Source of the DNA: an uncultured Bacilli bacterium
Lineage (GTDB): Bacteria > Bacillota_I > Bacilli_A > RF39 > UBA660
Assembly (NCBI GenBank): GCA_947629205.1
Contig: CANRCV010000003.1
Span: 1,303 to 65,302 of the forward strand
Length of the DNA stretch: 64,000 bases
Direction of reading: 5' to 3'
Shown here: positions 7,252 through 27,451 of the stretch, one piece after another
Numbering within the stretch: the stretch's first letter is position 1
Layout of the letters: every line of letters begins with the position of its first letter
The notes under the pieces: model-generated
What the model was told of the DNA's origin: nothing
Database searches by the model: none
Seen by the model: only the letters and a program-made list of their open reading frames with translations
Made by a program: the position numbers and the translations under genes

Positions 7252-8577
7252 ATGAAAAAAAGTTTTTTAGTAAGTATAACTTTGTTACTTTTACTACCCT
7301 TACATGTTTTTGCAGCAGGAAAAGCTAGTATTAGTGGGGCTTCTAGTGTAGAGGTTGGTAGTAGTGTTACCGTAACGGTTACTTTAACCAATACAGCATC
7401 TTGGAATATTAAAATTAATTCTTCTGGTTCGACGAGCGGTTGTTCTCAAAGTTTTGCAGATGCTTCTAGTAATGGAAAAAATACAACCAAAAAATTAAGT
7501 GTAACTTGTAAAGCAACAAGTATTGGAACCATTGGATTTACCGTTTCTGGTGATATTACCAGTGCAGATGGTGCTAATAGTAATGTTTCTTTAAGTAAAA
7601 GAGTAACGGTTACTCCTGTTCGTGAAAAATCAAAAGATGCTAACTTAGCTTCTATAACGCTTGAGGGATATACATTGAGTCCTGAATTTAATAAAGAAAC
7701 TTTAGAGTATGAAACGACTATTCCATCTACTGTGAATACTGTTATACTTTCTGCAAAAGCAAATGAATCTCATGCAAGTGTAGCAGGAGTTGGAGAATTT
7801 GAGGTCACAGAAGGAATAAATACATTTGAAATCGTCGTTACTGCTGAAAATGGGAATCAAAAAACCTATAAAGTACATGTGAATGTAGAAGATACTAATC
7901 CAATTCATGTTAAAATAGGAAATGATGAATATACAGTGATTAAAAATGCTAAAAGTTTAACCAAACCAGAAACTTATGAAGAAAAAACCGTAACGATTAA
8001 TGACTTTACTATACCAGCTTTTTATAGTGATATTACGAAATTTACTTTGGTAGGATTAAAAAGTCAAGAGGGGAAAATTTACTTAGCTATTTATGAGGAA
8101 GAAACAAATACGTATGTTTTATATAATGAAATTACAGCGGGTTCTCTAAATTTATATTTAGTTGATTTTCCAAAAGAATTTCCAGAATATACAAAAAGTA
8201 CTTTAGAAATTAATAATGTTGTTGTTCCTATCTATAAATTTAGTAATAGTCGTTTTGTTTTAGTCTATGGAATGAATATTGAAACAGGAGAGTACGATTA
8301 TTATACATATGATACAAAAGAAGCAACATTTCAAAGTTGGAATCATGAGGAGATTGATGCTTTAAATAAAGAGGTAAAAACGTATCAACTTATTTGCTTT
8401 GCTTTTGGAATTGGTTTATTCTTTGCTTTTATACTTATTCTTTGTTTACTTAAAAAAAGAAAGAAAAAAAATAAGAAGAAAGACCAAAAAGAAGAAAAAA
8501 AGAAAGAAGTAAAAGAACAAACCCAAGAAGAAAAATTAAAACAATTTGATCAATTTGAAGAGAAGAAGAAAAAGTAG
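7252..8577 (+). CDS. cell-surface protein with signal peptide, cadherin-like beta-sandwich domain, C-terminal TM helix and Lys/Glu-rich cytoplasmic tail
   Basis: ANLASITLEGYTLSPEFNKETLEYETTIPSTV...TYKVHV matches the cadherin-like beta-sandwich pattern. TM helix CFAFGIGLFFAFILILCLL is followed by a KKRKKKNKKK tail. Confidence 0.55.
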   Translation: MKKSFLVSITLLLLLPLHVFAAGKASISGASSVEVGSSVTVTVTLTNTASWNIKINSSGSTSGCSQSFADASSNGKNTTKKLSVTCKATSIGTIGFTVSGDITSADGANSNVSLSKRVTVTPVREKSKDANLASITLEGYTLSPEFNKETLEYETTIPSTVNTVILSAKANESHASVAGVGEFEVTEGINTFEIVVTAENGNQKTYKVHVNVEDTNPIHVKIGNDEYTVIKNAKSLTKPETYEEKTVTINDFTIPAFYSDITKFTLVGLKSQEGKIYLAIYEEETNTYVLYNEITAGSLNLYLVDFPKEFPEYTKSTLEINNVVVPIYKFSNSRFVLVYGMNIETGEYDYYTYDTKEATFQSWNHEEIDALNKEVKTYQLICFAFGIGLFFAFILILCLLKKRKKKNKKKDQKEEKKKEVKEQTQEEKLKQFDQFEEKKKK

Positions 8578-8624: not shown

Positions 8625-9701
8625 ATGGAAGTGAATAATATGTATGTAAATGGTCATGATGTTTTTATTATCGTCTTTATAACCTTTTTATGTAGTTTAA
8701 TTGTAACTCCAATTGTTGAACGTATTGCTTATCATGTTCATGCTATGGATTATCCTAATGAAAGAAGATTAAATAAAGTTCCAATGCCTACTTTAGGAGG
8801 ACTTGCTATTTTCTTTGCTTTTTTACTTGGTTATATGTTATATGCCAGAAGTAATGTCCAAATGCTTTCTATTTTAATGGGTAGTTTTTTACTTATCTTA
8901 ATGGGTATGATTGATGATATAAATCCTTTAAAAACACGTTATCAATTACTTGTTCAACTACTAGCTGCAGGAATTGTTACCTTTTATGGAGGTATTACTT
9001 TAAATTATATTAGTGTTTTTGGTCTTTCTTTTATTATTCCTGCTCCATGGAGTTATTTATTAACCATTATTTTAATTGTAGCGATTATTAATGCTATTAA
9101 TTTATCGGATGGATTAGATGGTTTATGTTCAGGTATTAGTTCCATTTACTTTTTAACGATTTCTATTATTGCTTTTATTATGAATTCTCAACAAGGACTA
9201 GATACAACTCTTGCCCTTATTATGCTAGGAGGTACTCTAGGATTTTTAGTTTATAACTTTCCACCTGCTCGTATTTATTTAGGAGATACGGGAAGTAATT
9301 TTATTGGTTTTATTATTGCAGTAACCACACTACTTGGTTATAAAACAGCAACCTTTACCTCCTTAATTATTCCTCTTATTATTTTAGCAACTCCTATTAT
9401 AGATGTCGCTTTATCCATTGCCAGAAGAATTTTAAAAAGACAGAATCCATTTAGTACTCCTGATAAACAACATTTTCATCATCAACTTTTAAAAATGAAA
9501 TTTTCCACGAGAGCTTCTTTACTGATTATTTATGCTATTGATCTTATTTTTGCTGGTTTATCTATTTTATATGCTTTAGGAATTACGTATTATGTTATGT
9601 TGATTTATATTGGATTAATGATTATCTTTTTATTCGTTGTATTAAAAACGGATATTTTATTTAAACATCAAAAAAAAGAAAAGAAAAGTAAAAGAGGGTA
9701 A
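8625..9701 (+). CDS. tagO: GT4/MraY-family undecaprenyl-phosphate N-acetylhexosamine-1-phosphate transferase (TagO/WecA-like priming enzyme)
   Basis: Polytopic protein with conserved DDxxP (MIDDINPL), NAINLSDGLDGL and LGDTGS motifs of the MraY/WecA family. Confidence 0.8.
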   Translation: MEVNNMYVNGHDVFIIVFITFLCSLIVTPIVERIAYHVHAMDYPNERRLNKVPMPTLGGLAIFFAFLLGYMLYARSNVQMLSILMGSFLLILMGMIDDINPLKTRYQLLVQLLAAGIVTFYGGITLNYISVFGLSFIIPAPWSYLLTIILIVAIINAINLSDGLDGLCSGISSIYFLTISIIAFIMNSQQGLDTTLALIMLGGTLGFLVYNFPPARIYLGDTGSNFIGFIIAVTTLLGYKTATFTSLIIPLIILATPIIDVALSIARRILKRQNPFSTPDKQHFHHQLLKMKFSTRASLLIIYAIDLIFAGLSILYALGITYYVMLIYIGLMIIFLFVVLKTDILFKHQKKEKKSKRG

Positions 9702-18378: not shown

Positions 18379-18407
18379 CTTGATTTTCACCATTTTTTAC
18401 TTTATAA
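18379..18407 (+). promoter_or_regulatory. sigma70-type promoter of the AbiE operon (TTGATT - 17 bp - TATAAT), followed by SD AAGAGGTG
   Basis: ttgattttcaccattttttactttataat read directly. The SD sits 6-7 nt before the ATG at about 18428. Coordinates are +/-1. Confidence 0.55.
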
Positions 18408-18427
18408 TGGTAAAAAGAGGTGAAAAT

Positions 18428-19018
18428 ATGATAATTACCAATACAATTTTTAAAAATAATAATCAACAATATAGGAATCAAAATAATAAATTAACAAGGG
18501 AAGTAAAAGCAAATAAGTTGTATAAAATTATAAATGGGTTATATGAAACAGATCCAAATACACCAGGCTATTTACTTGCTGGAAGTATTTATGGTCCATC
18601 TTATATTTCTTTTGAATATGCTCTTTCCTTTTATGGTCTAATTCCAGAAAGAGTAACTGTGATTACAAATGCTACTTTTGATAAGAAAAAGAAAAAAGAG
18701 TATCATACCTCATTTGGTGTTTTTACCTATAGGGATGTTCCTAAAGAGGTTTATGCCCAAGAAATTCTTTTAAAAGTAGAAAAAAATTATTCTTATCAAA
18801 TTGCAACTCCAGAAAAAGCCTTATGTGATAAGTTATATACTTTATCTCCGCTTCATAATTATAAGAATTTAGAAATAATGCTTTTTCAAGATTTACGTAT
18901 TGATGAAGAAGAATTTAATAAACTAGATGGAAATAAAATAAAAACACTAAGCCATTTCTATCATTCAACAAATATAAATTTATTAGCAAACTATATGAGG
19001 AGAAATAAACATGAATAA
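18428..19018 (+). CDS. AbiEi-family antitoxin-like transcriptional regulator (type IV TA / abortive infection)
   Basis: The track ORF begins at an upstream TTG. The ATG with a strong SD is the likely start. The C-terminal region (GYLLAGSIYGPSYISFEYALSFYGLIPE...ATPEKALCDKLY) resembles AbiEi/COG5340. 8-nt overlap with the AbiEii gene. Confidence 0.55.
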   Translation: MIITNTIFKNNNQQYRNQNNKLTREVKANKLYKIINGLYETDPNTPGYLLAGSIYGPSYISFEYALSFYGLIPERVTVITNATFDKKKKKEYHTSFGVFTYRDVPKEVYAQEILLKVEKNYSYQIATPEKALCDKLYTLSPLHNYKNLEIMLFQDLRIDEEEFNKLDGNKIKTLSHFYHSTNINLLANYMRRNKHE

Positions 19019-19871
19019 TATTATTGAACAAATGTTAGAAAAATATGAAATCAAAAATAGTAATGATGAATTAAATGCCTTAAAAGAAATCATTCAAGAA
19101 ATTGTATTGTCAGGCTTGTCACGAAGTGGTTTTTTTGATGAGGCTGCCTTTTATGGTGGAACAGCATTAAGAATTTTTTATAATTTAAATCGTTTTTCTG
19201 AAGATTTAGATTTTGCTTTACTATCACCAAATACAAATTTTGATTTAAGTAAATATTTTATTTCTATCGAGAAAGAATTAAAAGCGTATGGTTTAAATTT
19301 AGAAATTCATCCAAAAATAAAAAATAAAGATTCTAATATTACCTCTGCTTTTCTAAAAGGGGATACTTTAGAACATATTTTAAAATTTTTCCCTAAGGAA
19401 GAAACAAGACAATTTGATCACTTACTTAAAGATATCAAAATTAAATTTGAGGTGGACATAAACCCTCCACAGGGAGCAAATTATAAGATAGAATATAAGT
19501 TATTGCCAAGTCCACATCAAATTCGTCTTTATGATAAGGAATCTTTGTTTGCTGGTAAAATCCACGCTATTTTATGTCGAAATTGGATTTCTAGAACAAA
19601 AGGTAGAGATTTATATGATTATGTATTCTTTATGGCAACAAATACAAAAGTAAATTTAGAATTATTAAAAAATAAATTAATTGAATCTAGCTATATAAAA
19701 GAAAACGAAGAGTTTGATATTGAAAAATTGAAAGGACTATTGACTAAAAAATTTCAAGAAATTAATTATAATGATGCTAAAAATGATGTATTTCCATTTA
19801 TTAAAGATGTGGATAGTCTTAAAGTATGGAATAGTGAATTTTTTATTCATATTACAGAAAAATTACAATAA
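19011..19871 (+). CDS. AbiEii/AbiGii-family nucleotidyltransferase toxin (DUF1814)
   Basis: FYGGTALRIFYNLNRFSEDLDF is the hallmark N-terminal motif of the AbiEii NTase family. 286 aa. Confidence 0.7.
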   Translation: MNNIIEQMLEKYEIKNSNDELNALKEIIQEIVLSGLSRSGFFDEAAFYGGTALRIFYNLNRFSEDLDFALLSPNTNFDLSKYFISIEKELKAYGLNLEIHPKIKNKDSNITSAFLKGDTLEHILKFFPKEETRQFDHLLKDIKIKFEVDINPPQGANYKIEYKLLPSPHQIRLYDKESLFAGKIHAILCRNWISRTKGRDLYDYVFFMATNTKVNLELLKNKLIESSYIKENEEFDIEKLKGLLTKKFQEINYNDAKNDVFPFIKDVDSLKVWNSEFFIHITEKLQ

Positions 19872-19925: not shown

Positions 19926-19989
19926 CTTCCTTTTCTATTAAGTGTTATAATAGCAAGTAAGAGTAATAAAAAAGATAAGTGGGTGTCAT

Positions 19990-20841
19990 ATGAAAAATGC
20001 CATTATTATTTTAAATTACAATGATTGGGAAAATACCAAATTATTAGTGCAAGATATTAAGGGGTATAAAACATTAAATTATATAGTGATTGTTGATAAT
20101 AAAAGTACAGATGATTCTCTAGAAAAATTAAAGGTATTAGAAAATGATAAAATTATTTTACTAGAAGCCAAAGAAAATAAAGGCTATGCAGCAGGAAATA
20201 ATATTGGCATTCAATATGCCATAGAAAAATTAAAAGTGGAGAATATTATTATTAGTAATCCTGATATTATTGTAAGAGAAAAAGATTTAGAGGTTTTACT
20301 TAGTGATTTAGAAAAGGAAAATGTTTCTGTTATTGCTCCTGTTGTAGTAGAACCAATGGGAATTTCTCGTGGTTGGCATCTTCCTACATTTTTATCAGAA
20401 CTTTTTGCTAACATTCCTTTTATAAAAAGATTTGAATTTTCAATTCTTGCTTATCCCAAAGACAATTATAAAACAGATTTAACAAAAGTAGATGTTGTAA
20501 AAGGATGTTTTTTTATAATAAAAAAAGAAGCTTTAGAAGCAGTTGGTTATTTTGATGAACATACTTTTTTATATTATGAAGAAATTATTTTAGCTAAAAA
20601 ATTAAAAGATTTAGGGTATACTACTTATGTAGATAATCGCGTGAGTGTAAAACATGCTTTAGATCAAAGTATTTCAAAAAGTGTAAGAAGAATAGATAAA
20701 TTTAAATTATTAAAAGAAAGTCAACTTTATTATGAAAAAGAAATAGTAAAAAGAAATGTTTTTGCCATTCTTATATTAAGAATATGTGCTTATTTTTATC
20801 TATTTGGATTGCAAATAGAAAACATTTTTAGAAAGAATTAA
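19990..20841 (+). CDS. GT2-family glycosyltransferase
   Basis: ILNYNDWENT...VDNKSTDDS...DIIVRE with a DxD region. 283 aa. Confidence 0.75.
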   Translation: MKNAIIILNYNDWENTKLLVQDIKGYKTLNYIVIVDNKSTDDSLEKLKVLENDKIILLEAKENKGYAAGNNIGIQYAIEKLKVENIIISNPDIIVREKDLEVLLSDLEKENVSVIAPVVVEPMGISRGWHLPTFLSELFANIPFIKRFEFSILAYPKDNYKTDLTKVDVVKGCFFIIKKEALEAVGYFDEHTFLYYEEIILAKKLKDLGYTTYVDNRVSVKHALDQSISKSVRRIDKFKLLKESQLYYEKEIVKRNVFAILILRICAYFYLFGLQIENIFRKN

Positions 20842-20853
20842 TGCTCAAAAATA

Positions 20854-20945
20854 AAAAAGTGGGTGCAAAAAGGTGTAAATTTCATCAAAAAGTGGGTGCA
20901 AAAAGGTGTAAATTTCATCAAAAAGTGGGTGCAAAAAGGTGTAAA
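20854..20945. repeat. 2.8 tandem copies of a 33-bp direct repeat (aaaaagtgggtgcaaaaaggtgtaaatttcatc)
   Basis: Copies at 20854-20886, 20887-20919 and a partial copy from 20920. They are contiguous, with no spacers. Confidence 0.85.
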
Positions 20946-20997
20946 AATTGCAATAATTGTTGCAATTTTGTCACAAATAATATATACTATTTGTGAC
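20945..20997. promoter_or_regulatory. two palindromes upstream of AAA-ATPase gene 1: aaattgcaa-taattg-ttgcaattt and gtcacaaata-atatatac-tatttgtgac (10-bp arms); operator-like sites around a TATACT -10-like element
   Basis: Base-by-base check of 20945-20968 and 20970-20997. Confidence 0.55.
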
Positions 20998-21050
20998 GAA
21001 GATAATACAATATTGTGCTTAATTAGCTTATTTTAGGAGAAAAAGAAAAA

Positions 21051-22361
21051 ATGAAAAGAAAAATATATGAAGATTTAATGAATTGGAAGGAAGATAATAG
21101 TTTTAAACCCTTAATTGTTTTAGGAGTAAGACAATGTGGAAAAACCTATATAATTGATGAATTTTGTAAAAATGAATTTAAAAGTTACAAAAAAATTAAT
21201 TTATTATATGATACAGATGTTATTAAATTATACACATCAAATGATCCATCAGAAAAAAAATATAATGCTTTAAAAATGTTAATTGATTTTGATTTTGACC
21301 AAGAAAATAGTGTATTATTTATTGATGAAATTCAAGAATGTGAAGAATTAATCTCTGAATTAAAATTTTTTAATGAAAAACATAGTAATGTGCGTATTAT
21401 ATGTGCAGGCTCTTTGCTTGGTGTAAAATTAGCCAGGTTTAAGAAATCGTTTCCAGTAGGAAAAATAAATATATTAAATATGTATCCTATGGATTTTGAG
21501 GAATTTATGATTGCTTTTAATCAACAACCTCTTTTAGATAAAATAAGAGAATGCTTTCAAAAAGATGAGCCAATGGGAGTTCTTCACAAAATAGCCATAG
21601 ATTATTATAAAAAATATTTATTATCAGGTGGAATGCCAGAAAGTATAAAAGCATTAATCGATTGTCAAGAAGATTATTATAATTATGATTTATCAAAGTT
21701 AGATAATATTATTGAAGGCTATAAAAATGATATGAGTCATCATGTTACTAATTCAAACGAAACTTTAAAAATTAGAAATATTTATAGTTCTTTACCTTCA
21801 CAACTTCAAAATGTATCTAAAAAATTCCAATATTCTGTTATTAATACAGAAGCCAAATCAAGAGAGTATGCTTTACCTTTACATTGGTTAGTAGAAAGTG
21901 AAATGGTTCAAATTTGTAAATGTGTTAAATTACCAGAAATACCTTTATTAGGTTTTGTAGATAACGAGGTTTTTAAAGTTTACTATTCAGATGTTGGCGT
22001 TTTTAATCGATTAGTCAATAATAATGCAAAAACAATTCTTCTTGATGATATGAAAATATATAAAGGCATTATTACTGAAAATTATGTTGCAAATCAGTTA
22101 GCTGCTAAGGAAATTGATTTATTGTATTGGAAAGGCAAAAGAGATGCTGAGGTTGATTTCTTAATTACAACTGCAAATGATGGAGTTATTCCTATTGAGG
22201 TGAAAGCAGAAGAGCATACACAATCCAAAAGTTTAAAAATATATGATGAATTATACCATCCAAACTATATGATTAGAATTAGTTCTAAAGATTTTGGTTT
22301 TGCTAATAATATTAAATCAGTTCCATTATATGCTGTTTTTTGTATTGATTCAATACTATAA
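21051..22361 (+). CDS. AAA+ ATPase of the AAA_14/DUF4143 family (ATP-binding protein, function unknown)
   Basis: Walker A GVRQCGKTY, Walker B VLFIDEIQ, and a C-terminal DUF4143-like region. SD AGGAGA upstream. Confidence 0.7.
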   Translation: MKRKIYEDLMNWKEDNSFKPLIVLGVRQCGKTYIIDEFCKNEFKSYKKINLLYDTDVIKLYTSNDPSEKKYNALKMLIDFDFDQENSVLFIDEIQECEELISELKFFNEKHSNVRIICAGSLLGVKLARFKKSFPVGKINILNMYPMDFEEFMIAFNQQPLLDKIRECFQKDEPMGVLHKIAIDYYKKYLLSGGMPESIKALIDCQEDYYNYDLSKLDNIIEGYKNDMSHHVTNSNETLKIRNIYSSLPSQLQNVSKKFQYSVINTEAKSREYALPLHWLVESEMVQICKCVKLPEIPLLGFVDNEVFKVYYSDVGVFNRLVNNNAKTILLDDMKIYKGIITENYVANQLAAKEIDLLYWKGKRDAEVDFLITTANDGVIPIEVKAEEHTQSKSLKIYDELYHPNYMIRISSKDFGFANNIKSVPLYAVFCIDSIL

Positions 22362-22373
22362 GGAGATATAAAA

Positions 22374-23528
22374 ATGAAAAATATAATCATTATTGGTGCA
22401 AGAGGGTATCAATTTAATTATGGTGGATGGGAAACTTTTGTTACAAATTTAATTCAAAATTATAATGATAAATCGGTTCAATTTCATATACCAGAACTTA
22501 ATCACAATAAAAAAGAAAATAAAAGTATTCTTAATAAAGATGGTGTTTCCTGTTTGCAAATTTATGTTCCAAAAATAGGATTTGTCACTATGTTTCTCTA
22601 TGCTATAAAAGCCTTAAAATATTTAAAAGAATATATAAAGAAGAATCAATTAGAAAATGTAGTTGTCTATGTTTTAGGATGTCGTGTAGGGCCTTTTTAT
22701 CCTTTTTTAATACATTCTTTAAAAAAACAAGGAATACCCATTTATTTAAATCCTGATGGCTTAGAATGGATGCGAGATAAATGGGCATGGTGGATTAAAG
22801 AATGTTTTAAAATTAGTGAATCGTGTATGGTTAAACATAGTGATTATATTGTTTGTGATAGCAAAGCTATCCAAAATTATATTGATAACAAATATAAAAA
22901 ATATAAGAAAAAAACCTATTTTATTCCCTATGGTGCTTATTTAAATGAAAAAGAAGAAAAAACAGAACTTGTTAAAAATATTCTAAAACAATATAACATA
23001 AAAGAAAATAATTACTATTTAATGGTTGGAAGATTTGTACCTGAAAATAATTACGAACTTGTGATTCGTGAATTTATGTCTTCCAATACAGAAAAAGATT
23101 TAGTAATTATTTCAAATGTAAAAGAAAATAAATTTTATAAACAATTAGAACAAAAAACAAACTTTTTAGGAGATAAAAGAATTAAGTTTATTGGTCCAGT
23201 TTATGATCATCCGTCTTTACTTTATTTTCGAAAAAATGCTTATGCATATATTCATGGTCATAGTGCTGGAGGTACAAATCCTAGTTTATTAGAAAGCCTG
23301 GCAACAACAAAAGTAAATCTTTTATATCATGCGGTTTATAATGTTGAGGTAGGAATGATGTCTTCTCTTTATTTTAGTAAAAGAAAAAATGATTTAAAAA
23401 GTATGATTGAAAAGTGTGACACTTTTGATGCTTCTACCATAAAAAAGTATGAAAAACTCGCTAAAGATCGCATCAAAAGCACTTACACTTGGCAATTAGT
23501 TGTGGAAGAATATAAAAAAATTTGGTAG
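22374..23528 (+). CDS. DUF1972 + GT1-fold (GT4) glycosyltransferase, RgpA/WchF-like (rhamnosyltransferase-type)
   Basis: N-terminal IIIIGARGYQFNYGGWETFV is typical of DUF1972 as found in RgpA/WchF. C-terminal GT4 domain. Confidence 0.7.
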   Translation: MKNIIIIGARGYQFNYGGWETFVTNLIQNYNDKSVQFHIPELNHNKKENKSILNKDGVSCLQIYVPKIGFVTMFLYAIKALKYLKEYIKKNQLENVVVYVLGCRVGPFYPFLIHSLKKQGIPIYLNPDGLEWMRDKWAWWIKECFKISESCMVKHSDYIVCDSKAIQNYIDNKYKKYKKKTYFIPYGAYLNEKEEKTELVKNILKQYNIKENNYYLMVGRFVPENNYELVIREFMSSNTEKDLVIISNVKENKFYKQLEQKTNFLGDKRIKFIGPVYDHPSLLYFRKNAYAYIHGHSAGGTNPSLLESLATTKVNLLYHAVYNVEVGMMSSLYFSKRKNDLKSMIEKCDTFDASTIKKYEKLAKDRIKSTYTWQLVVEEYKKIW

Positions 23529-23533
23529 TTTTT

Positions 23534-23660
23534 AAAAAGTCCTTCAATTTTCGTGAAGGTAAGCACAAAAAGTCCTTTGATTTTCGTGAAGGTAAGTACA
23601 AAAAGTCCTTCGATTTTCGTGAAGATAAGTGCAAAAAGTCCTTCAATTTTCGTGAAGAAA
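23534..23660. repeat. 3.8 tandem copies of a second 33-bp direct repeat (aaaaagtccttcaattttcgtgaaggtaagcac), each with an internal 6-bp inverted repeat ccttca/tgaagg
   Basis: Copies at 23534-66, 23567-99, 23600-32 and a partial copy 23633-~60, with point variants (c/t, a/g). Confidence 0.85.
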
Positions 23661-23692
23661 AGATGAAAATAGCTTTATTTTTTGGGCAATTA

Positions 23693-23701
23693 TGGTATAA
23701 T
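23693..23701 (+). promoter_or_regulatory. extended -10 promoter element TGGTATAAT ahead of AAA-ATPase gene 2, followed by SD AGGTGA
   Basis: tatggtataat read directly. taggtga lies 7 nt before the ATG at 23719. Confidence 0.5.
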
Positions 23702-23718
23702 AATAATAGGTGATTTCA

Positions 23719-25041
23719 ATGAAAAGAAAAATATATCAAGAATTATTGAATTGGAAAGAAGGAAAAATAGAGAATAAACCTTTGATGCTTTTAGGAGTAA
23801 GGCAATGTGGTAAAACTTATATTATTGAAGAATTTTGTAAAAATGAATTTAAATATGCTAAGACGATCAATTTGTTAAGTGATACAAATGTTATAGAATT
23901 ATATCGAAGTAATCTTACATCTGATGAAAAATATGTTCAATTGAAATTAATCATTAATTTTGATTTGGATAAAGAAGATTCTGTTCTTTTTATTGATGAA
24001 ATTCAAGAATGCGAAGAATTAATTGCTGAATTAAAATATTTTTGTGAAAAGCATAATAATGTTCACATTATTTGTGCTGGTTCTTTACTAGGAGTGAAAT
24101 TAAATCGCCTGAAATCATCTTTTCCCGTTGGAAAAGTGTGGATACAATATTTATATCCAATGGATTTCGAAGAATTTTTAATGGCATATAAACAAGAAAA
24201 TTTAATTGATTATATTAAAGAATGTTTTAATAAAAATAAGGCATTAAGTGAACCTTTACATCAAAAACTAATAATGCTTTATAGAACCTATTTAATTACT
24301 GGAGGAATGCCAGAGAGCATTAAAAATATGATAATCAATGAAGATGATTATATAAAATATAATAAAAATATTTTACAAAGTATTTTAATTGCTTATATAA
24401 ATGATATGCAAAAACATGTTTTAAATGAACAAGAATCTTTTAAAATAGAAGCTATTTATAAGTCACTTCCTTCTCAATTAATGAATATTTCAAAAAAATT
24501 TCAATATTCAAATGTTTCAAAAAATGCAAGAGCAAGAGATTATGAAACAGCTATTCATTGGTTAGAAAATAGTAATTTAGTTATTAAATGTAGAAATATA
24601 CGATTACCTGAAATTCCTTTGGAAGGCTTTGCTGAAGAAGATGTATTTAAACTCTATTTAAGTGATGTAGGGGTTCTTAATAAATTATTGATAATCAAAA
24701 TGGAAGATATTTTAACGAATAAAAATTTTATATACAAAGGAATTATTGCGGAAAACTTTGTTGCCAATCAATTAGTTGCTAATAATATTCCACTATATTA
24801 TTGGAAAAATGGGGATGGTACTGCAGAGGTAGATTTTTTAATTGATACAAAAGATGGTATAATTCCCATTGAGGTAAAAGCTTCCAATAATACGCAATCC
24901 AAAAGTTTAAAAGTATATATGGATAAATACAAACCAAAATATGCAATAAGAATAAGTAGCAAAAATTTTGGTTATAATGAAAAAACCAATGTTAAATCTA
25001 TTCCACTTTATGCTACATTTTTAATTAAAGAAATTGTATAG
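23719..25041 (+). CDS. AAA+ ATPase of the AAA_14/DUF4143 family, paralog of 21051-22361
   Basis: Track ORF starts at GTG 23710. The ATG at 23719 aligns with the paralog start MKRKIY. Same Walker A/B motifs. About 55% identity to the first copy by eye. Confidence 0.7.
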   Translation: MKRKIYQELLNWKEGKIENKPLMLLGVRQCGKTYIIEEFCKNEFKYAKTINLLSDTNVIELYRSNLTSDEKYVQLKLIINFDLDKEDSVLFIDEIQECEELIAELKYFCEKHNNVHIICAGSLLGVKLNRLKSSFPVGKVWIQYLYPMDFEEFLMAYKQENLIDYIKECFNKNKALSEPLHQKLIMLYRTYLITGGMPESIKNMIINEDDYIKYNKNILQSILIAYINDMQKHVLNEQESFKIEAIYKSLPSQLMNISKKFQYSNVSKNARARDYETAIHWLENSNLVIKCRNIRLPEIPLEGFAEEDVFKLYLSDVGVLNKLLIIKMEDILTNKNFIYKGIIAENFVANQLVANNIPLYYWKNGDGTAEVDFLIDTKDGIIPIEVKASNNTQSKSLKVYMDKYKPKYAIRISSKNFGYNEKTNVKSIPLYATFLIKEIV

Positions 25042-25105: not shown

Positions 25106-25834
25106 ATGGATGAATTAGCAATTGAGGTCAAAAATGTAACAAAAAATTTTAAGTTATATTATGATAAACCAAGTACTCTAAAAGAAAGACTTGTTTTTTG
25201 GAATAAGAAAAAAGCAGATGTTCATGTTGTTTTAGAAAATGTATCTTTAAATATAAAAAAAGGAGAGAGTGTTGCTTTAATTGGGGTAAATGGTAGTGGG
25301 AAATCAACTTTATTAAAATTAATGACTAAAATTATTTATCCCAATGCTGGTAAAATTGTTACACATGGAAAACTTACCTCTTTACTAGAATTAGGAGCAG
25401 GTTTTCATCCTGATTTTACGGGACGTGAAAATATTTATTTTAATGCTGCTATTTTTGGTTTAACAAAAGCTGAAATTGATAAACGTTTAGAGGAAATTAT
25501 TGCTTTTTCTGAACTTGGAGAGTTTATCGATAGTCCTGTTCGAACTTATTCATCTGGTATGTATATGCGACTTGCTTTTTCTGTTGCTATAAACGTTGAT
25601 GCTGAAATTCTTTTAATTGATGAAATCTTGGCTGTTGGAGATCAACATTTTCAAGATAAATGTTTTCAAAAACTAAAAGATTTAAAAGAGAGTGGTAAAA
25701 CAATTGTTATTGTTAGTCATAGTTTAGATGCTGTTCGTAAACTTTGTAATCGTGCTATATGGATTCATGAAGGTAAAATAAAAATGGATGGAGATACATC
25801 TGTATTTGATGAATATATAAAGGTGTGTGGTTAA
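25106..25834 (+). CDS. ABC transporter ATP-binding protein, polysaccharide/teichoic-acid export type (TagH/Wzt/RgpD-like)
   Basis: Walker A GVNGSGKST, signature YSSGMYMRLAF, Walker B ILLIDE. Confidence 0.85.
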   Translation: MDELAIEVKNVTKNFKLYYDKPSTLKERLVFWNKKKADVHVVLENVSLNIKKGESVALIGVNGSGKSTLLKLMTKIIYPNAGKIVTHGKLTSLLELGAGFHPDFTGRENIYFNAAIFGLTKAEIDKRLEEIIAFSELGEFIDSPVRTYSSGMYMRLAFSVAINVDAEILLIDEILAVGDQHFQDKCFQKLKDLKESGKTIVIVSHSLDAVRKLCNRAIWIHEGKIKMDGDTSVFDEYIKVCG

Positions 25835-26606
25835 AATGTTTAAAGAACTTTATAATTATCGTGAACTATTAAAAACCAATGTTAAAAAAGATATTCGAGG
25901 AAAGTATAAGGGTTCTTTTTTAGGGGTTTTATGGTCTTTTGTAAATCCTCTTTTAATGACTTTGGTTTATGCTATTGTTTTTCCAATATTAATGCGTAGT
26001 ACTGAACCTCATTATGTTACTTTTATTGTTGTAGGAATTCTTCCTTGGACTTGGTTTACGAATTGTATAGCTCTTGGTACAACAACCATTTTAGCAAATG
26101 CTGGCGTTATTAAAAAAGTATATTTTCCTCGTGAAATTTTACCTATTTCGGTAGTGACAAGTGGTATGATTAATTTTTTAATTTCTTGTTTGATTATTTT
26201 ATTATTCTTACTTTTTTCAAAAATAGGTTTTAGTATTTATATTTTATTTTTACCTCTTATTATACTAGCCCAATATTTACTTTCTTTAGGTATTATTTTG
26301 ATTACAAGTGCTATTGATATTTATATTCGAGATTTAGAATATATTATTAATTTCTTTGTTAGTATGCTATTTTATGCAACTCCTATTTTATATTCTCCAA
26401 GTATGTTTCAAAATACCCCTTTTGCTCTTTTATTTAAAATTAATCCTCTAGCTATTATTATTAGTTCTTATCGCGATATTTTTTATTATAAAACAATGCC
26501 TGATTTAGGGGTTTTAACAATTGTTATTCTTGGATGTATTCTATTTTGTTCTTTTGCTTACTATATATTTAAAAAGTTGGCAAAAGGATTTGCGGAGGAG
26601 GTGTAA
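25827..26606 (+). CDS. ABC-2 type permease (TagG/Wzm/RgpC-like)
   Basis: 6-TM ABC-2 permease pattern. 8-nt overlap with the ATPase gene. Confidence 0.8.
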   Translation: MVKMFKELYNYRELLKTNVKKDIRGKYKGSFLGVLWSFVNPLLMTLVYAIVFPILMRSTEPHYVTFIVVGILPWTWFTNCIALGTTTILANAGVIKKVYFPREILPISVVTSGMINFLISCLIILLFLLFSKIGFSIYILFLPLIILAQYLLSLGIILITSAIDIYIRDLEYIINFFVSMLFYATPILYSPSMFQNTPFALLFKINPLAIIISSYRDIFYYKTMPDLGVLTIVILGCILFCSFAYYIFKKLAKGFAEEV

Positions 26607-26608
26607 AT

Positions 26609-27451
26609 TTGATTGCATTTGTTGTACTACATTATAAGAATTTGGATGATACAATAGCTTGTGTGGAATCATTAAAAAAAATAAAAGGTAATAAAAAGAT
26701 TATCGTTGTAGATAACCATTCTTTAAATGAAGAAACACAAAAAGTATTAGAAAGCAAAGTAAATGATGTGATTGTACTTGATGAAAATATTGGTTTTGCT
26801 AAAGCTAATAATATTGGAATTCAATTTGCAAAAGAAAAATATAATCCAAAATTTGTAATGGTCTTAAATAGCGATACAGAAATTCAACAAATTGACTTTG
26901 TCGATCGCGTAAAAAAAAATGCTCAAAAGTACAAATTTGACCTTTTAGGGGGCAAAATTATTACAAAAGGGGATTCTTGTAACCCTTTTCCTGCCCTTGA
27001 TTCAAAAGAAAAAGTAATGAAGGAAATAAAACGTGCCCATAAATTAATTACGATTTATGAGCACCCTTTCTTATTTTTTCTTTTGAACATTTATATGAAA
27101 ATAAAACATATTTTTAAAAAACCAAAAAAAATGGAAAATGGAAAACGACTTTGTAAAAATGTGCCTTTACATGGTTGTGCTATTCTATTTTCTAAACAAT
27201 ATTTAGATAAATATGAAGATGCTTTTATTAATGATACCTTTTTATTTCATGAAGAAGATTTTCTTTATGAACGAATAAAAAAAGATCATTTACTGACGAT
27301 TTATGATCCAAAAATAGAAGTTATTCATAAAGAAGGTTCTTCTTTAAATAAAACATTTAAAAATGAAAGAAAAAAGAAATTATTTCGAGAAACAGAAAGG
27401 TTAAAATCACTAAAATTATTACTTGAATATATTCAGGAGGGAAAAGAATGA
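26609..27451 (+). CDS. GT2-family glycosyltransferase
   Basis: VVLHYKN...VVDNHS N-terminal GT2 signature, plus DxD. Confidence 0.7.
   Translation: MIAFVVLHYKNLDDTIACVESLKKIKGNKKIIVVDNHSLNEETQKVLESKVNDVIVLDENIGFAKANNIGIQFAKEKYNPKFVMVLNSDTEIQQIDFVDRVKKNAQKYKFDLLGGKIITKGDSCNPFPALDSKEKVMKEIKRAHKLITIYEHPFLFFLLNIYMKIKHIFKKPKKMENGKRLCKNVPLHGCAILFSKQYLDKYEDAFINDTFLFHEEDFLYERIKKDHLLTIYDPKIEVIHKEGSSLNKTFKNERKKKLFRETERLKSLKLLLEYIQEGKE

What the first reader, a model, noticed from the sequence alone, without database searches (positions are those of the whole stretch)
20842..25041. Two paralogous DUF4143-type AAA ATPases, each preceded by its own array of 33-bp tandem direct repeats plus palindromes, bracketing an RgpA-like glycosyltransferase
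Upstream of ATPase 1 there are 2.8 copies of a 33-bp unit (20854-20945), followed by two perfect palindromes (20945-20968 and 20970-20997) around a TATACT box. Upstream of ATPase 2 there are 3.8 copies of a different 33-bp unit (23534-23660). Each of these units contains a ccttca/tgaagg hairpin. They are followed by an extended -10 TGGTATAAT. Both units begin aaaaagt, are exactly 33 bp (three helical turns) and are contiguous. The layout is iteron-like rather than CRISPR-like. DUF4143 ATPases are widespread with unknown function. Paralog-specific repeat arrays suggest each ATPase, or a partner, binds its own iterons. That could be autoregulation, or an origin or partition-like or defense-associated role. 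Their insertion into a glycan locus on either side of a transferase gene is unexplained.
Basis: seen in the sequence. Interest (0 to 1): 0.6.

Follow-up and report, generated by a model that had tools for sequence, protein, structure and literature searches.

The report
Conserved 33-bp operator arrays before PDC-S01 ATPases
Each of the two ATPase-nuclease genes (a very common but untested candidate phage-defence family) carries just before its promoter a short array of 33-bp DNA repeats that recurs with this gene family in over a hundred other genomes. This is most likely a docking site through which the protein controls its own gene.

Summary
TRF finds 2.8 perfect copies of a 33-bp unit at 20854-20945 and 3.8 copies (92%) of a different one at 23534-23657. 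Each lies upstream of an AAA_14+DUF4143 ATPase; the two are 59% identical and both match PADLOC candidate PDC-S01.

The arrays are a conserved family feature. Among 75 relatives from other genomes, 44 show 32/33-bp periodicity just upstream of the gene, against 3-7 in control regions. The units share a bipartite core, AAAGT-N6-AAAAA-N-GTG-N-A, spaced exactly 33 bp in 43 of 48 pairs. Three copies is the usual number, always oriented toward the gene and in helical phase with the promoter.

The 25-bp core is conserved while the 8-bp spacer drifts freely. A gene-blind metagenome scan for the array found the ATPase immediately downstream in 78 of 122 cases. At least three of the rest are deletion remnants.

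The arrays are not coding, not a known or stable RNA, not CRISPR, and not a plasmid origin. The protein model resembles ORC/Cdc6-type AAA+ winged-helix proteins.

Best reading: cooperative operator sites bound by the ATPase itself for autoregulation. This is inferred, not shown.

The parts
18380..19871 (+). AbiEi antitoxin (18380-19018) and AbiEii toxin (19011-19871). This is a known abortive-infection pair immediately upstream; it is context, not part of the repeat element.
   Evidence: Pfam AbiEii E 8e-30. PADLOC AbiEi 1.5e-63 and AbiEii 3.3e-103. Absent from the syntenic locus L081; present in the same-species contig L209.
19990..20841 (+). Family-2 glycosyltransferase. Its stop codon lies about 10 nt before array 1.
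   Evidence: Pfam Glycos_transf_2. The same gene precedes the array and ATPase in L081 and L209.
20854..20945 (+). Array 1: three 33-bp units, with cores at 20856-20878, 20889-20911 and 20922-20944 (AAAGTGGGTGCAAAAAGGTGTAA).
   Evidence: TRF gives 2.8 copies at 100%. The cores are unique in the window. The same core recurs in relatives that are 71-83% identical at protein level: L081, L001, L002, L004, L172, L210. A near-identical strain, L209, has only 2 units.
20944..20997 (.). A lineage-specific stretch of about 70 bp between array 1 and the ribosome-binding site. It holds two inverted repeats with 10-nt arms, a TTGCAA-17-TATACT promoter-like site (20960-20988), and a relic of the family's -10 position (TGCAATAAT, 20949-20957).
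   Evidence: Absent from the orthologous spacer in L081 and L210. Present in L209. Found in none of the other loci.
21051..22361 (+). ATPase 1 (436 aa): AAA_14 ATPase, winged helix, and DUF4143 PD-(D/E)xK nuclease-like domain. PADLOC family PDC-S01.
   Evidence: Invariant Walker A (G25..G30-K31), Walker B (D92-E93) and E383-x-K385, with D369 in at least 90% of sequences. AF2 model pLDDT 72. Fold hits to PAB2304, ORC and Cdc6.
22374..23528 (+). DUF1972/Cps2T-like rhamnosyltransferase lying between the two cassettes.
   Evidence: Pfam DUF1972 1.8e-50. NCBIfam Cps2T 8e-139, which is below that model's cut-off.
23534..23698 (+). Array 2: four good 33-bp units (23534-23665, core AAAGTCCTTCAATTTTCGTGAAG) and a degenerate fifth unit (23666-23698) that overlaps the promoter.
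   Evidence: TRF gives 3.8 copies at 92%. The repeat finder places a fourth and fifth register. Cores are unique in the window. The same core type, in 3 units, lies upstream of the 69%-identical relatives L204 and L205.
23693..23713 (+). Predicted extended -10 (TGGTATAAT, 23693-23701) and ribosome-binding site (AGGTGA, 23708-23713) of ATPase 2.
   Evidence: Read from the sequence. The -10 starts 41 nt after the GTG of the last good unit, one of three helically phased classes. No transcript data exist.
23719..25041 (+). ATPase 2 (440 aa), a paralogue of ATPase 1. Together with array 2 it forms a ~1.5-kb block (23529-25041) that is missing from the syntenic locus L081.
   Evidence: 59% identity to ATPase 1. 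Pfam and PADLOC matches. Presence/absence against L081.

Best explanation
Each array is a cis-regulatory operator. It consists of 2-5 (usually 3) head-to-tail 33-bp units, each a 25-bp bipartite binding site (AAAAAGT-N6-AAAAA-N-GTG-N-AA) followed by an unconstrained 8-bp spacer.

The array sits directly on or just upstream of the promoter of a PDC-S01 ATPase-nuclease gene, in fixed orientation and in helical phase with it. The most likely binder is the gene's own product. Its ORC/Cdc6-like AAA+ and winged-helix modules would occupy successive units cooperatively, probably depending on ATP.

Occupancy would throttle a promoter that is otherwise strong, keeping a potentially toxic nuclease at a set level. 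Different core variants would let paralogues in one cell be controlled separately.

**Shown:** the element's existence, anatomy, conservation, linkage to the gene, phasing with predicted promoter elements, and that it is neither coding nor a stable RNA.

**Inferred:** that a protein binds it, that the binder is the ATPase, and that the effect is repression.
For: **Linkage to the gene.**
- A period-32/33 tandem repeat lies 100-240 bp upstream of the ATPase start in about 35 of 80 relatives from MAGs labelled Bacilli, Clostridia and Treponema.
- The best autocorrelation lag is 32/33 in 44 of 75 upstream regions, against 3-7 of 70-80 in four control regions. Strong arrays number 21 against 0.
- A gene-blind scan of metagenome contigs for two cores 33 bp apart gave 122 arrays. 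Of these, 78 have a PDC-S01 relative (31-73% identical) on the same strand, in most starting 24-150 bp downstream. About 13 more had too little sequence to tell.
- At least three 'orphan' arrays are deletion remnants of the gene.

**Binding-site signature.**
- Cores are exactly 33 bp apart in 43 of 48 pairs.
- In the ATPase 1 clade, positions 1-25 carry 1.76 bits and positions 26-33 carry 0.43 bits.
- Cores differ by 9-10% where proteins differ by less than 30%, while spacers already differ by 54-59%.
- The variable core positions are therefore conserved within clades but not between them.

**Relation to the promoter.**
- The predicted -10 starts 9-13, 29-33 or 40-41 nt after the last unit. 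These offsets differ by about 2 and 1 helical turns.
- The predicted promoters are near consensus.
- In a Parabacteroides plasmid the last unit ends in a sequence I read as TAnnTTTG, the Bacteroides-type promoter element as I recall it. On that reading, the element keeps its form while the promoter type changes with the host.

**The ATPase as binder.**
- It is the only gene consistently linked. The only recurrent neighbour among the 80 loci is a second ATPase paralogue, in 8 of them.
- The same array type travels with the gene into unrelated genomic contexts.
- The two paralogues in this window have different cores, each matching its own clade.
- The AF2 model resembles AAA+ winged-helix DNA binders: PAB2304, ORC4/5, Cdc6, and archaeal Orc1/Cdc6 bound to origin DNA.
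Against: **No experimental data.** There is no binding, transcript or phenotype evidence, and promoters are called by consensus only in AT-rich DNA. The window scan finds 38 promoter-like sites where 36 are expected by chance.

**Arrays without the gene.** About 31 arrays lack a downstream ATPase. Some look intact and sit, with a promoter, in front of other genes: MazG-like, NrtR-type NUDIX and RmuC. L081 carries an orphan ATPase-2-type array in front of a glycosyltransferase gene. So the array can function, or at least persist, without the gene in cis. A different binder is therefore possible.

**No domain-specific co-variation.** Core divergence correlates no better with the winged-helix segment than with other domains (rho about 0.1 for all).

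**Direction of regulation is uncertain.** In 24 of 44 arrays the last good unit lies upstream of the -35 rather than over it. That geometry is also used by activators.

**Model quality.** The AF2 model is of moderate confidence, and the TM-scores to ORC-type proteins are low (0.2-0.4).
Confidence: 0.5

Rival explanations
1. The array is a regulatory binding site, but the binder is a host or otherwise unlinked protein rather than the ATPase. The ATPase gene would be just the most common cargo behind a portable promoter module.
For: Apparently intact arrays with promoters precede MazG-like, NrtR-NUDIX and RmuC genes, and a glycosyltransferase gene in L081. Fourteen core positions are constant across clades that are only about 30% identical in protein. 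No winged-helix-specific co-variation was found.
Against: The array accompanies the gene in MAGs labelled Bacilli, Clostridia and Treponema, and on a Bacteroidota plasmid whose last unit ends in a sequence I read as a Bacteroides-type promoter element. A single host factor with the same specificity in all of them is unlikely. The variable core positions are conserved per ATPase clade and differ between two paralogues in one genome. No other motif-like arrays occur in the 64-kb window. No regulator gene is co-conserved.
Confidence: 0.2
2. The array is part of the working mechanism rather than only a gene switch. It would be a loading or docking platform on which the ORC-like ATPase-nuclease assembles, is stored inactive, and from which it is released or activated on infection.
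For: The protein has an initiator-clade AAA+ plus winged-helix fold with a fused PD-(D/E)xK nuclease domain. Three evenly spaced sites suit nucleation of an oligomer. The family is a defence candidate.
Against: Nothing here distinguishes this from plain autoregulation. Relatives at 36-46% identity have other upstream elements in place of this direct-repeat motif, among them paired or single palindromes. That fits interchangeable operators better than a mechanistic platform.
Confidence: 0.1
3. The array marks a site used for movement of the gene, either as an insertion or homing target or as a recombination site of a small mobile cassette.
For: There are clean presence/absence polymorphisms. 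Array 2 plus ATPase 2 are absent from L081. The ATPase ORF alone is absent from L092 compared with L014, with the array kept. The same cassette occurs in unrelated contexts. The gene carries a nuclease-like domain.
Against: Breakpoints are inconsistent. The array is inside the indel in one case and outside it in another, and two cases are internal deletions that keep the first codons of the gene. There are no target-site duplications, no terminal inverted repeats, and no linked recombinase.
Confidence: 0.05
4. The arrays are iterons of a replication origin, or a centromere (parC-like site), of an integrated plasmid-like element.
For: They are tandem direct repeats next to a gene for an initiator-like AAA+ protein. 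The layout resembles iterons or parC sites that include a promoter.
Against: No Rep, ParA/ParM or ParR-type partner is conserved next to the gene. The loci lie between chromosomal housekeeping genes such as aspS and the suf genes. Two different arrays sit 2.7 kb apart inside a polysaccharide operon.
Confidence: 0.03
5. The repeats act after transcription, either as a translated 11-residue repeat peptide (33 = 11 codons) or as a structured 5' leader RNA.
For: In this window one frame is open across both arrays (KKWVQKGVNFI and KKSFNFREGKx). Array 2 units contain a 6-bp hairpin.
Against: That frame is open in only 8 of 27 arrays, and no frame is consistently open. Predicted -35/-10 elements lie after or within the last unit, and at least 6 arrays follow a terminator directly. 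Folding z-scores are -1.2, +0.5, -1.8 and -1.1. There is no Rfam match. The hairpin is not conserved in L204 or L205.
Confidence: 0.03
6. The arrays are neutral minisatellites produced by replication slippage.
For: Units in array 1 are 100% identical, spacer included. A 98%-identical strain has 2 units instead of 3. Copy number therefore does change by slippage or recombination.
Against: Period, copy number, orientation, position and a 25-bp core are conserved across more than 100 loci and across proteins down to about 30% identity, while the spacers randomise.
Confidence: 0.02

Closest known systems
PADLOC phage defence candidate PDC-S01 (AAA_14 + DUF4143; COG1373)
   Same: Both ATPases match its HMMs end to end (E 1e-135 and 1e-145). 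They have the same ATPase plus PD-(D/E)xK architecture.
   Different: PDC-S01 is defined by protein models alone. The papers I read describe no cis element, and the family is untested for defence. The repeat array is a feature of only part of the family: 76 of the 139 family genes in the loci gathered here.
DnaA boxes in the dnaA promoter, and archaeal Orc1/Cdc6 with ORB elements next to its own gene
   Same: In both, an AAA+ plus DNA-binding-domain protein binds several repeated boxes beside its own gene, with ATP-dependent cooperative assembly and (for DnaA) autorepression. This is from my own knowledge of those systems. The model's best fold matches include ORC subunits, Cdc6, and Orc1/Cdc6-DNA complexes 2qby and 2v1u.
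   Different: There is no sign of an origin: no unwinding element was identified, and the two arrays lie inside an operon. The units are strictly tandem and direct at 33 bp, not inverted around an origin. The protein carries a nuclease-like domain. Fold similarity is domain-level only (TM 0.2-0.4).
Plasmid iterons and parC-type centromeres (tandem direct repeats around a promoter, bound cooperatively by Rep or ParR, giving autorepression)
   Same: Head-to-tail repeats with fixed spacing, located at the promoter of the adjacent gene, with unit sequences that differ between related systems. The comparison rests on my own knowledge of those systems.
   Different: There is no Rep or partition gene set. 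The context is chromosomal and the cassette is a single gene. The unit is longer (33 bp with a bipartite 25-bp core).
Autoregulated defence and toxin-antitoxin promoters, for example AbiEi binding repeats in the abiE promoter, or WYL/BrxR-type regulators of defence operons
   Same: The shared logic is that a potentially harmful defence gene is kept in check by a protein binding repeats at its own promoter. This is from my own knowledge. An AbiE pair lies 1 kb upstream in this window.
   Different: Those systems use a dedicated small regulator or antitoxin and inverted repeats. Here no separate regulator gene exists, and the sites are direct repeats in the main clade.

Membership tests
PDC-S01 (PADLOC candidate defence family) | Full-length match to the family's protein HMMs | tested here: met
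   PDLC04786 matches at E 2.6e-135 (ATPase 1) and 3.2e-145 (ATPase 2), covering residues 1-433 and 1-438.
PDC-S01 (PADLOC candidate defence family) | AAA_14 ATPase fused to a DUF4143 PD-(D/E)xK domain, with catalytic motifs intact | tested here: met
   Pfam AAA_14 and DUF4143 both pass their cut-offs. Walker A G25..G30-K31, Walker B D92-E93 and E383-x-K385 are invariant, and D369 is present in at least 90% of 28 sequences. DUF4143 is listed as PD-(D/E)XK in PMC3424549.
PDC-S01 (PADLOC candidate defence family) | Protection against phage | not testable with these tools
   The PDC systems as a class are described as untested in the papers read.
Plasmid iterons / replication origin | Tandem direct repeats of fixed period next to the initiator gene | tested here: met
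   Period is 33 bp in 43 of 48 unit pairs. Arrays end about 30-150 bp before the start codon.
Plasmid iterons / replication origin | Adjacent gene belongs to a Rep initiator family, and the locus is a replicon | tested here: not met
   The gene matches only AAA_14 and DUF4143. Loci lie between chromosomal housekeeping genes, and no replication gene is co-conserved.
parC-type centromere with ParR/ParM (or ParA/ParB) | A partner pair of partition NTPase and adaptor genes downstream of the repeats | tested here: not met
   The cassette is a single gene. The only recurrent neighbour is a second ATPase paralogue.
CRISPR array | Repeats separated by unique spacers of similar length, with cas genes or a leader | tested here: not met
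   Units are contiguous. The only variable part is an 8-bp stretch. No cas genes were found among the neighbours.
ORC/Cdc6-type initiators with ORB boxes | AAA+ initiator-clade fold followed by a winged helix | tested here: inconclusive
   Foldseek gives probability 0.96-1.0 for nearly all listed matches to PAB2304 (2qen), ORC4/5, Cdc6, 2qby and 2v1u. However, TM is only 0.2-0.4 and the model pLDDT is 72.
ORC/Cdc6-type initiators with ORB boxes | Boxes flank an unwinding element and fire replication | not tested
   No unwinding element was looked for, and function is not testable here. The arrangement is direct and tandem, not inverted.
Known RNA families (Rfam 15) | Match at the gathering threshold | tested here: not met
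   There are 0 matches in the whole window. Folding energies do not differ significantly from shuffles.

The most novel reading that the evidence does not exclude
The 33-bp array is not merely an operator. It would be the nucleation site on which an ORC-like ATPase-nuclease builds an ATP-dependent oligomer on the cell's own DNA. That would be a docking and licensing station that keeps the nuclease silent and couples its release or activation to infection. On this reading the array is an integral DNA component of one of the most abundant candidate defence systems in prokaryotes.
Probability: 0.12. Interest if true: 0.85.

Novelty: new variant of a known kind. Interest (0 to 1): 0.62.

Why it matters
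PDC-S01 (AAA_14 + DUF4143) is reported as the fourth most common defence-type gene family across prokaryotes and the most frequent single locus in rumen genomes (PMC12988326, PMC13356809). Nobody yet knows what it binds or does. A full-text search for DUF4143 returned three papers, of which I read only the DUF4143 passage of one; that passage and the three PDC papers I consulted mention no cis element.

A conserved, sequence-defined DNA element that travels with the gene gives a concrete ligand and a simple set of experiments: gel shift, footprint, and reporter assays with phase-shifted arrays. It also suggests the protein reads DNA sequence in the manner of an ORC/Cdc6 initiator.

There are practical consequences too. 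The element can serve as a marker for recently lost copies of the gene (orphan arrays). It also explains why the two paralogues here each carry their own repeat type.

Tried and rejected
1. **Repeat-peptide ORF.** The frame that is open in this window is open in only 8 of 27 arrays. Rejected.

2. **RNA element.** Rfam finds nothing, folding z-scores are unremarkable, and the hairpin is not conserved. Rejected.

3. **Terminator always upstream of the array.** I expected this to show the array is untranscribed. Only 6 of 42 arrays have a clear one, so it is weak support only.

4. **Domain-specific co-variation.** I compared core divergence with divergence of the AAA+, lid, winged-helix and nuclease segments. 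All rho values are about 0.1, so this is uninformative. The winged-helix segment does differ between clades with different operator types, but that cannot be separated from shared ancestry.

5. **Conserved neighbour or regulator gene.** None found.

6. **Mobile-element hallmarks.** The indel junctions show no target duplications or inverted ends.

7. **Consensus promoter and terminator scan of the window.** The number of promoter-like sites equals the chance expectation, so it is not informative on its own.

8. **Sequence search of the PDB.** No relative found.

9. **Source organism.** The exact proteins are on record but unnamed. The closest genomes are uncultured Bacilli MAGs.

10. **Phage carriage.** Only 2 array matches in 2.9 million viral contigs and 13 weak protein matches in phage records. 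The element is cellular or plasmid-borne.

Full report
**1. The observation**

The region reads as described. TRF reports 20854-20945 (period 33, 2.8 copies, 100% matches) and 23534-23657 (period 33, 3.8 copies, 92%) as by far the strongest tandem repeats in the 64-kb window. The 23-nt cores AAAGTGGGTGCAAAAAGGTGTAA and AAAGTCCTTCAATTTTCGTGAAG occur 3 and 4 times, only at these sites, with 0 expected in shuffles.

Downstream lie two paralogous genes, 21051-22361 and 23719-25041. They are 59% identical, and each is AAA_14 plus DUF4143. Between them is a DUF1972/Cps2T-like rhamnosyltransferase. Upstream are a family-2 glycosyltransferase and an AbiEi/AbiEii pair, and downstream an ABC-2 exporter. 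The window has 24.7% G+C. Its closest relatives are uncultured gut Bacilli MAGs.

- The two 'palindromes' have perfect 10-nt arms but centres that are not palindromic.
- Array 2 has a degenerate fifth unit over its promoter.
- The start of ATPase 2 is better placed at the ATG at 23719, which aligns with ATPase 1.

**2. What the genes are**

Both proteins match PADLOC's PDC-S01 models over their full length (E 1e-135 and 1e-145). PDC-S01 belongs to PADLOC's set of untested 'phage defence candidates', which were found embedded in BREX, DISARM and type I RM systems (bioRxiv 10.1101/2024.01.29.577857). It is reported as the fourth most common defence-type system in prokaryotes (PMC12988326) and the most frequent single locus in rumen genomes (PMC13356809). 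DUF4143 is classified as a PD-(D/E)XK nuclease-fold family (PMC3424549).

In an alignment of 28 relatives, Walker A, Walker B and E383-x-K385 are invariant, and D369 is present in at least 90%. An AlphaFold2 model (pLDDT 72) shows an AAA+ core, a helical lid, a helix plus β-hairpin segment consistent with a winged helix, and a C-terminal α/β domain. Foldseek against the PDB returns the Pyrococcus Walker ATPase PAB2304 (2qen), ORC4/5, Cdc6, archaeal Orc1/Cdc6-DNA complexes (2qby, 2v1u), RuvB and RFC. The similarity is at domain level only (TM 0.2-0.4). No solved structure is detectable by sequence.

**3. The arrays are a conserved feature of the gene family**

I fetched 80 loci encoding relatives (36-77% identical) from one-genome-per-species contigs. 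TRF finds a period-32/33 repeat of 2-3.7 copies, starting 100-240 bp before the ATPase start, in about 35 of them. These include MAGs labelled Bacilli, Clostridia and Treponema.

A simple autocorrelation of the 300 nt upstream gives 32 or 33 as the best lag in 44 of 75 loci. Four control regions of the same loci give 3-7 of 70-80. Strong arrays number 21 against 0.

An iterated nhmmer profile converges on a 22-nt core, AAAGT(G/C)(G)T(W)NN-AAAAA-N-GTG-N-A. Successive cores are exactly 33 bp apart in 43 of 48 pairs.

Across all loci gathered, 76 of 139 family genes have such an array. Copy numbers are 2 (10 arrays), 3 (55), 4 (9) and 5 (2). This set is partly selected for arrays.

**4. A test that does not start from the gene**

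I scanned the metagenome collection for two cores 33 bp apart. In 78 of them a PDC-S01 relative (31-73% identical to the window's proteins) lies on the same strand as the array. In most it starts 24-150 bp after the array. About 13 had too little downstream sequence, and 31 had something else downstream.

Several of those 31 are remnants of gene loss:
- L092 equals the L014 locus (94-95% identical flanks) with the ATPase ORF, from -21 to +8, replaced by 17 bp. The array and the -35 are kept.
- L135 keeps the array and the first 12 codons of the gene that is intact in L191.
- L123 against L171 is a similar internal deletion.

Others look intact and sit with a promoter in front of a MazG-like gene, an NrtR-type NUDIX gene or rmuC, or upstream of clpB's CIRCE operator. 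Only 2 matches were found in 2.9 million viral contigs.

**5. Signature of selection on a binding site**

The ATPase 1 clade here comprises 9 loci (proteins 71-83% identical to ATPase 1, plus ATPase 1 itself) and 29 units. Unit positions 1-25 carry a mean of 1.76 bits and positions 26-33 carry 0.43 bits.

Over all dereplicated pairs, cores differ by 9-10% when the proteins differ by less than 30%, and level off at 32-34% beyond that. Spacers differ by 54-66% at every distance, which is near random for this base composition.

So there are three layers:
- about 14 positions constant across the whole family;
- about 9 positions conserved within a clade but different between clades (for example GTGGGTGC…GGTGTAA, GTCGTTAG…TGTGAAA, GTGGTATC…AATGCAA, GTCCCTTG…CGTGCA);
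- a free spacer.

Each paralogue in this window carries the array type of its own clade. The ATPase 1 type is seen in L081, L001, L002, L004, L172 and L210. The ATPase 2 type (AAAGT(G/C)CTTTGA(T/A)TTTCGTGAT) is seen in the 69%-identical L204 and L205.

Copy number does fluctuate. A strain whose ATPase 1 is 98% identical has 2 units where the window has 3. That fits the 100% identity of the window's units.

**6. Relation to the promoter**

For 44 dereplicated arrays I located the best -35/-10 match between the array and the start codon. The -10 hexamer begins 9-13 nt after the GTG of the last good unit in 14 loci, and 29-33 nt after it in 20 loci. In that second group a near-consensus TTGACA typically begins 7-9 nt after the GTG. 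In four loci, including ATPase 2, the offset is 40-41 nt.

These offsets differ by about 21 and 10.5 bp, that is, whole helical turns. The array is therefore in a fixed rotational phase with the promoter. Either it overlaps the -35 region or it ends just upstream of it.

Array 1 fits the first class if TGCAATAAT (20949-20957) is the homologue of the TGnTATAAT seen in L081, L001, L002 and L210. However, this strain and L209 have about 70 extra bp there, with two inverted repeats and a TTGCAA-17-TATACT site. No other locus has these.

In a Parabacteroides distasonis plasmid (protein 34% identical), three units about 33 bp apart end in TGTATCTTTGCA. I read this as TAnnTTTG, the Bacteroides-type promoter element as I recall it from the literature. 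On that reading the array keeps its form while the core promoter changes with the host.

**7. What the arrays are not**

- **Not coding.** 33 bp is 11 codons, and in this window one frame is open over both arrays. That frame is open in only 8 of 27 arrays, and no frame is consistently open.
- **Not a known or stable RNA.** There is no Rfam match. Folding z-scores are -1.2, +0.5, -1.8 and -1.1. The hairpin in array 2 units is not conserved. In at least 6 loci a terminator directly precedes the array.
- **Not CRISPR.** The units are contiguous.
- **Not an origin or centromere of a plasmid-like element.** The only recurrent neighbour is a second ATPase paralogue, in 8 of 80 loci. Flanks are ordinary chromosomal genes such as aspS, hisS and suf.

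**8. Genomic context in this window**

The ENA contig L081 (ATPase 83% identical to ATPase 1) is syntenic: RgpF, GT2, three units, ATPase, DUF1972 transferase, ABC exporter. Window 19986-23527 and 25130-26494 align to it at 77-78%. L081 lacks AbiE. It also lacks ATPase 2 with its array; there the transferase stop and the ABC start are 68 bp apart.

Window 23529-25041 is therefore a block of array, promoter and gene that is present in one lineage and absent in the other. L081 in turn has an orphan ATPase-2-type array (9600-9690) between the ABC permease gene and the next transferase gene, where the window has none.

L210 (79% identical) carries the ATPase 1-type array and gene between a HIT-family gene and the suf genes.

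Taken together, the cassette comes and goes, and the polysaccharide locus is a place where defence-type genes (AbiE and two PDC-S01 copies) have accumulated. The four indel junctions I looked at show no shared breakpoints, duplications or inverted ends.

**9. Mechanism**

The anatomy is that of a cooperative protein-binding site: a 25-bp bipartite core, a free spacer, a strict 33-bp period, three copies, fixed orientation and helical phasing with the promoter.

The ATPase is the best candidate for the binder, for five reasons:
- It is the only consistently linked gene.
- The element travels with it between contexts and, by MAG and plasmid labels, between phyla.
- Clade-specific core positions are conserved.
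- Paralogues in one genome differ.
- The predicted fold is that of AAA+ winged-helix proteins that recognise repeated boxes.

The predicted promoters are near consensus, or carry an extended -10. I therefore favour negative autoregulation, by analogy with DnaA at its own promoter. The analogy rests on my own knowledge and is not a result of this work.

Relatives at 36-46% identity fit the idea of an operator that evolves with its binder. Some carry two palindromes, TTCGTACA-N3-TGTACGAA, 32 bp apart, the second over the promoter. Others carry one long palindrome around the -35.

Weaknesses:
- There are no experimental data.
- Intact-looking arrays precede other genes.
- No domain-specific co-variation was found.
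- An upstream position is also compatible with activation.

I put the operator reading as a whole at about 0.7-0.75, and 'bound by its own ATPase, repressing' at about 0.5.

**10. Comparison with known systems and novelty**

The proteins are members of PDC-S01. The arrays work like iterons, parC sites or DnaA-box clusters, but they fail the membership tests for plasmid iterons, partition sites, CRISPR and known RNAs (see the table).

A full-text search for DUF4143 returned three papers. The DUF4143 passage I read in one of them (the other two I did not open) and the three PDC-S01 papers I consulted mention no cis element. I cannot exclude a description in literature outside the library.

I class it as a new variant of a known kind. 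It is a new family of promoter-linked tandem operator repeats, attached to a very abundant and uncharacterised ATPase-nuclease.

Noticed in passing
window 18380-19871: An AbiEi/AbiEii abortive-infection pair sits immediately upstream of the glycosyltransferase that precedes array 1. It is absent from the syntenic locus L081 and present in the same-species contig L209. The polysaccharide locus has therefore picked up three defence-type cassettes.
   Followed up: partly
window 20944-20997 (also L209 2894-2947): About 70 bp between array 1 and the ribosome-binding site hold two inverted repeats with perfect 10-nt arms and a TTGCAA-17-TATACT site. The stretch is missing from the orthologous spacers of L081 and L210, and the GTCACAAATA-N8-TATTTGTGAC motif occurs in none of the other 205 loci. 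It could be a second operator for an unknown regulator, or a small insertion.
   Followed up: partly
L081 9600-9690: An orphan three-unit array of the ATPase 2 type lies between the ABC permease gene and the next glycosyltransferase gene of the syntenic locus, with no ATPase gene nearby. The window has no array at the corresponding junction (26600-26610).
   Followed up: partly
L035, L037, L038, L041, L044, L045, L046, L051 (100 nt before the ATPase start): Relatives about 43% identical carry two palindromes, TTCGTACA-N3-TGTACGAA, about 32 bp apart in place of direct repeats. The second overlaps the -35/-10. The spacing is the same but the site symmetry differs. L039, L063, L072 and L079 instead have one long palindrome, AAGTCAAGAAAAATC…GATTTTTCTTGACTT, around the -35.
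   Followed up: partly
L082 and L187 (array, then a 110-aa gene); L127; L085; L096 and L100: Intact-looking arrays with a promoter precede a MazG-like pyrophosphohydrolase, an NrtR-type NUDIX regulator or RmuC, or lie upstream of clpB's CIRCE operator, with no ATPase in the fetched 5-15 kb. It is unknown whether a cognate ATPase exists elsewhere in those genomes.
   Followed up: partly
L209 2840-2895, compared with window 20854-20945: A strain with a 98%-identical ATPase 1 has two units where the window has three. Unit number therefore varies within a species.
   Followed up: yes
L206 (Parabacteroides distasonis plasmid NZ_OY725769, 33000-33117 in the record): A plasmid record of a named species carries an array-bearing copy. 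Its three units end in a sequence I read as a Bacteroides-type TAnnTTTG promoter element. This makes it a possible experimental system.
   Followed up: partly
window 23541-23559, minus strand: On the minus strand each array 2 unit reads as a short hairpin followed by a T-run, which looks like a terminator. No gene converges on it, and the hairpin is not conserved in L204 or L205, so it is probably incidental.
   Followed up: yes
L015 646-785; L030 577-2008; L062 2605-2858 and 6808-7140; L035 1736-1813: Other unrelated tandem repeats were seen in fetched loci: 34 bp x4.1 at 96%; 339 bp x4.2; several 21-bp arrays (ATCCTGTCGAGT…); and 41 bp x2 just after an ATPase gene. None was examined.
   Followed up: no
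window 8454-8536: TRF also reports a period-33 repeat here. It is an A-rich, low-complexity stretch (76% matches) inside ORF 7252-8577 and has no similarity to the arrays.
   Followed up: no
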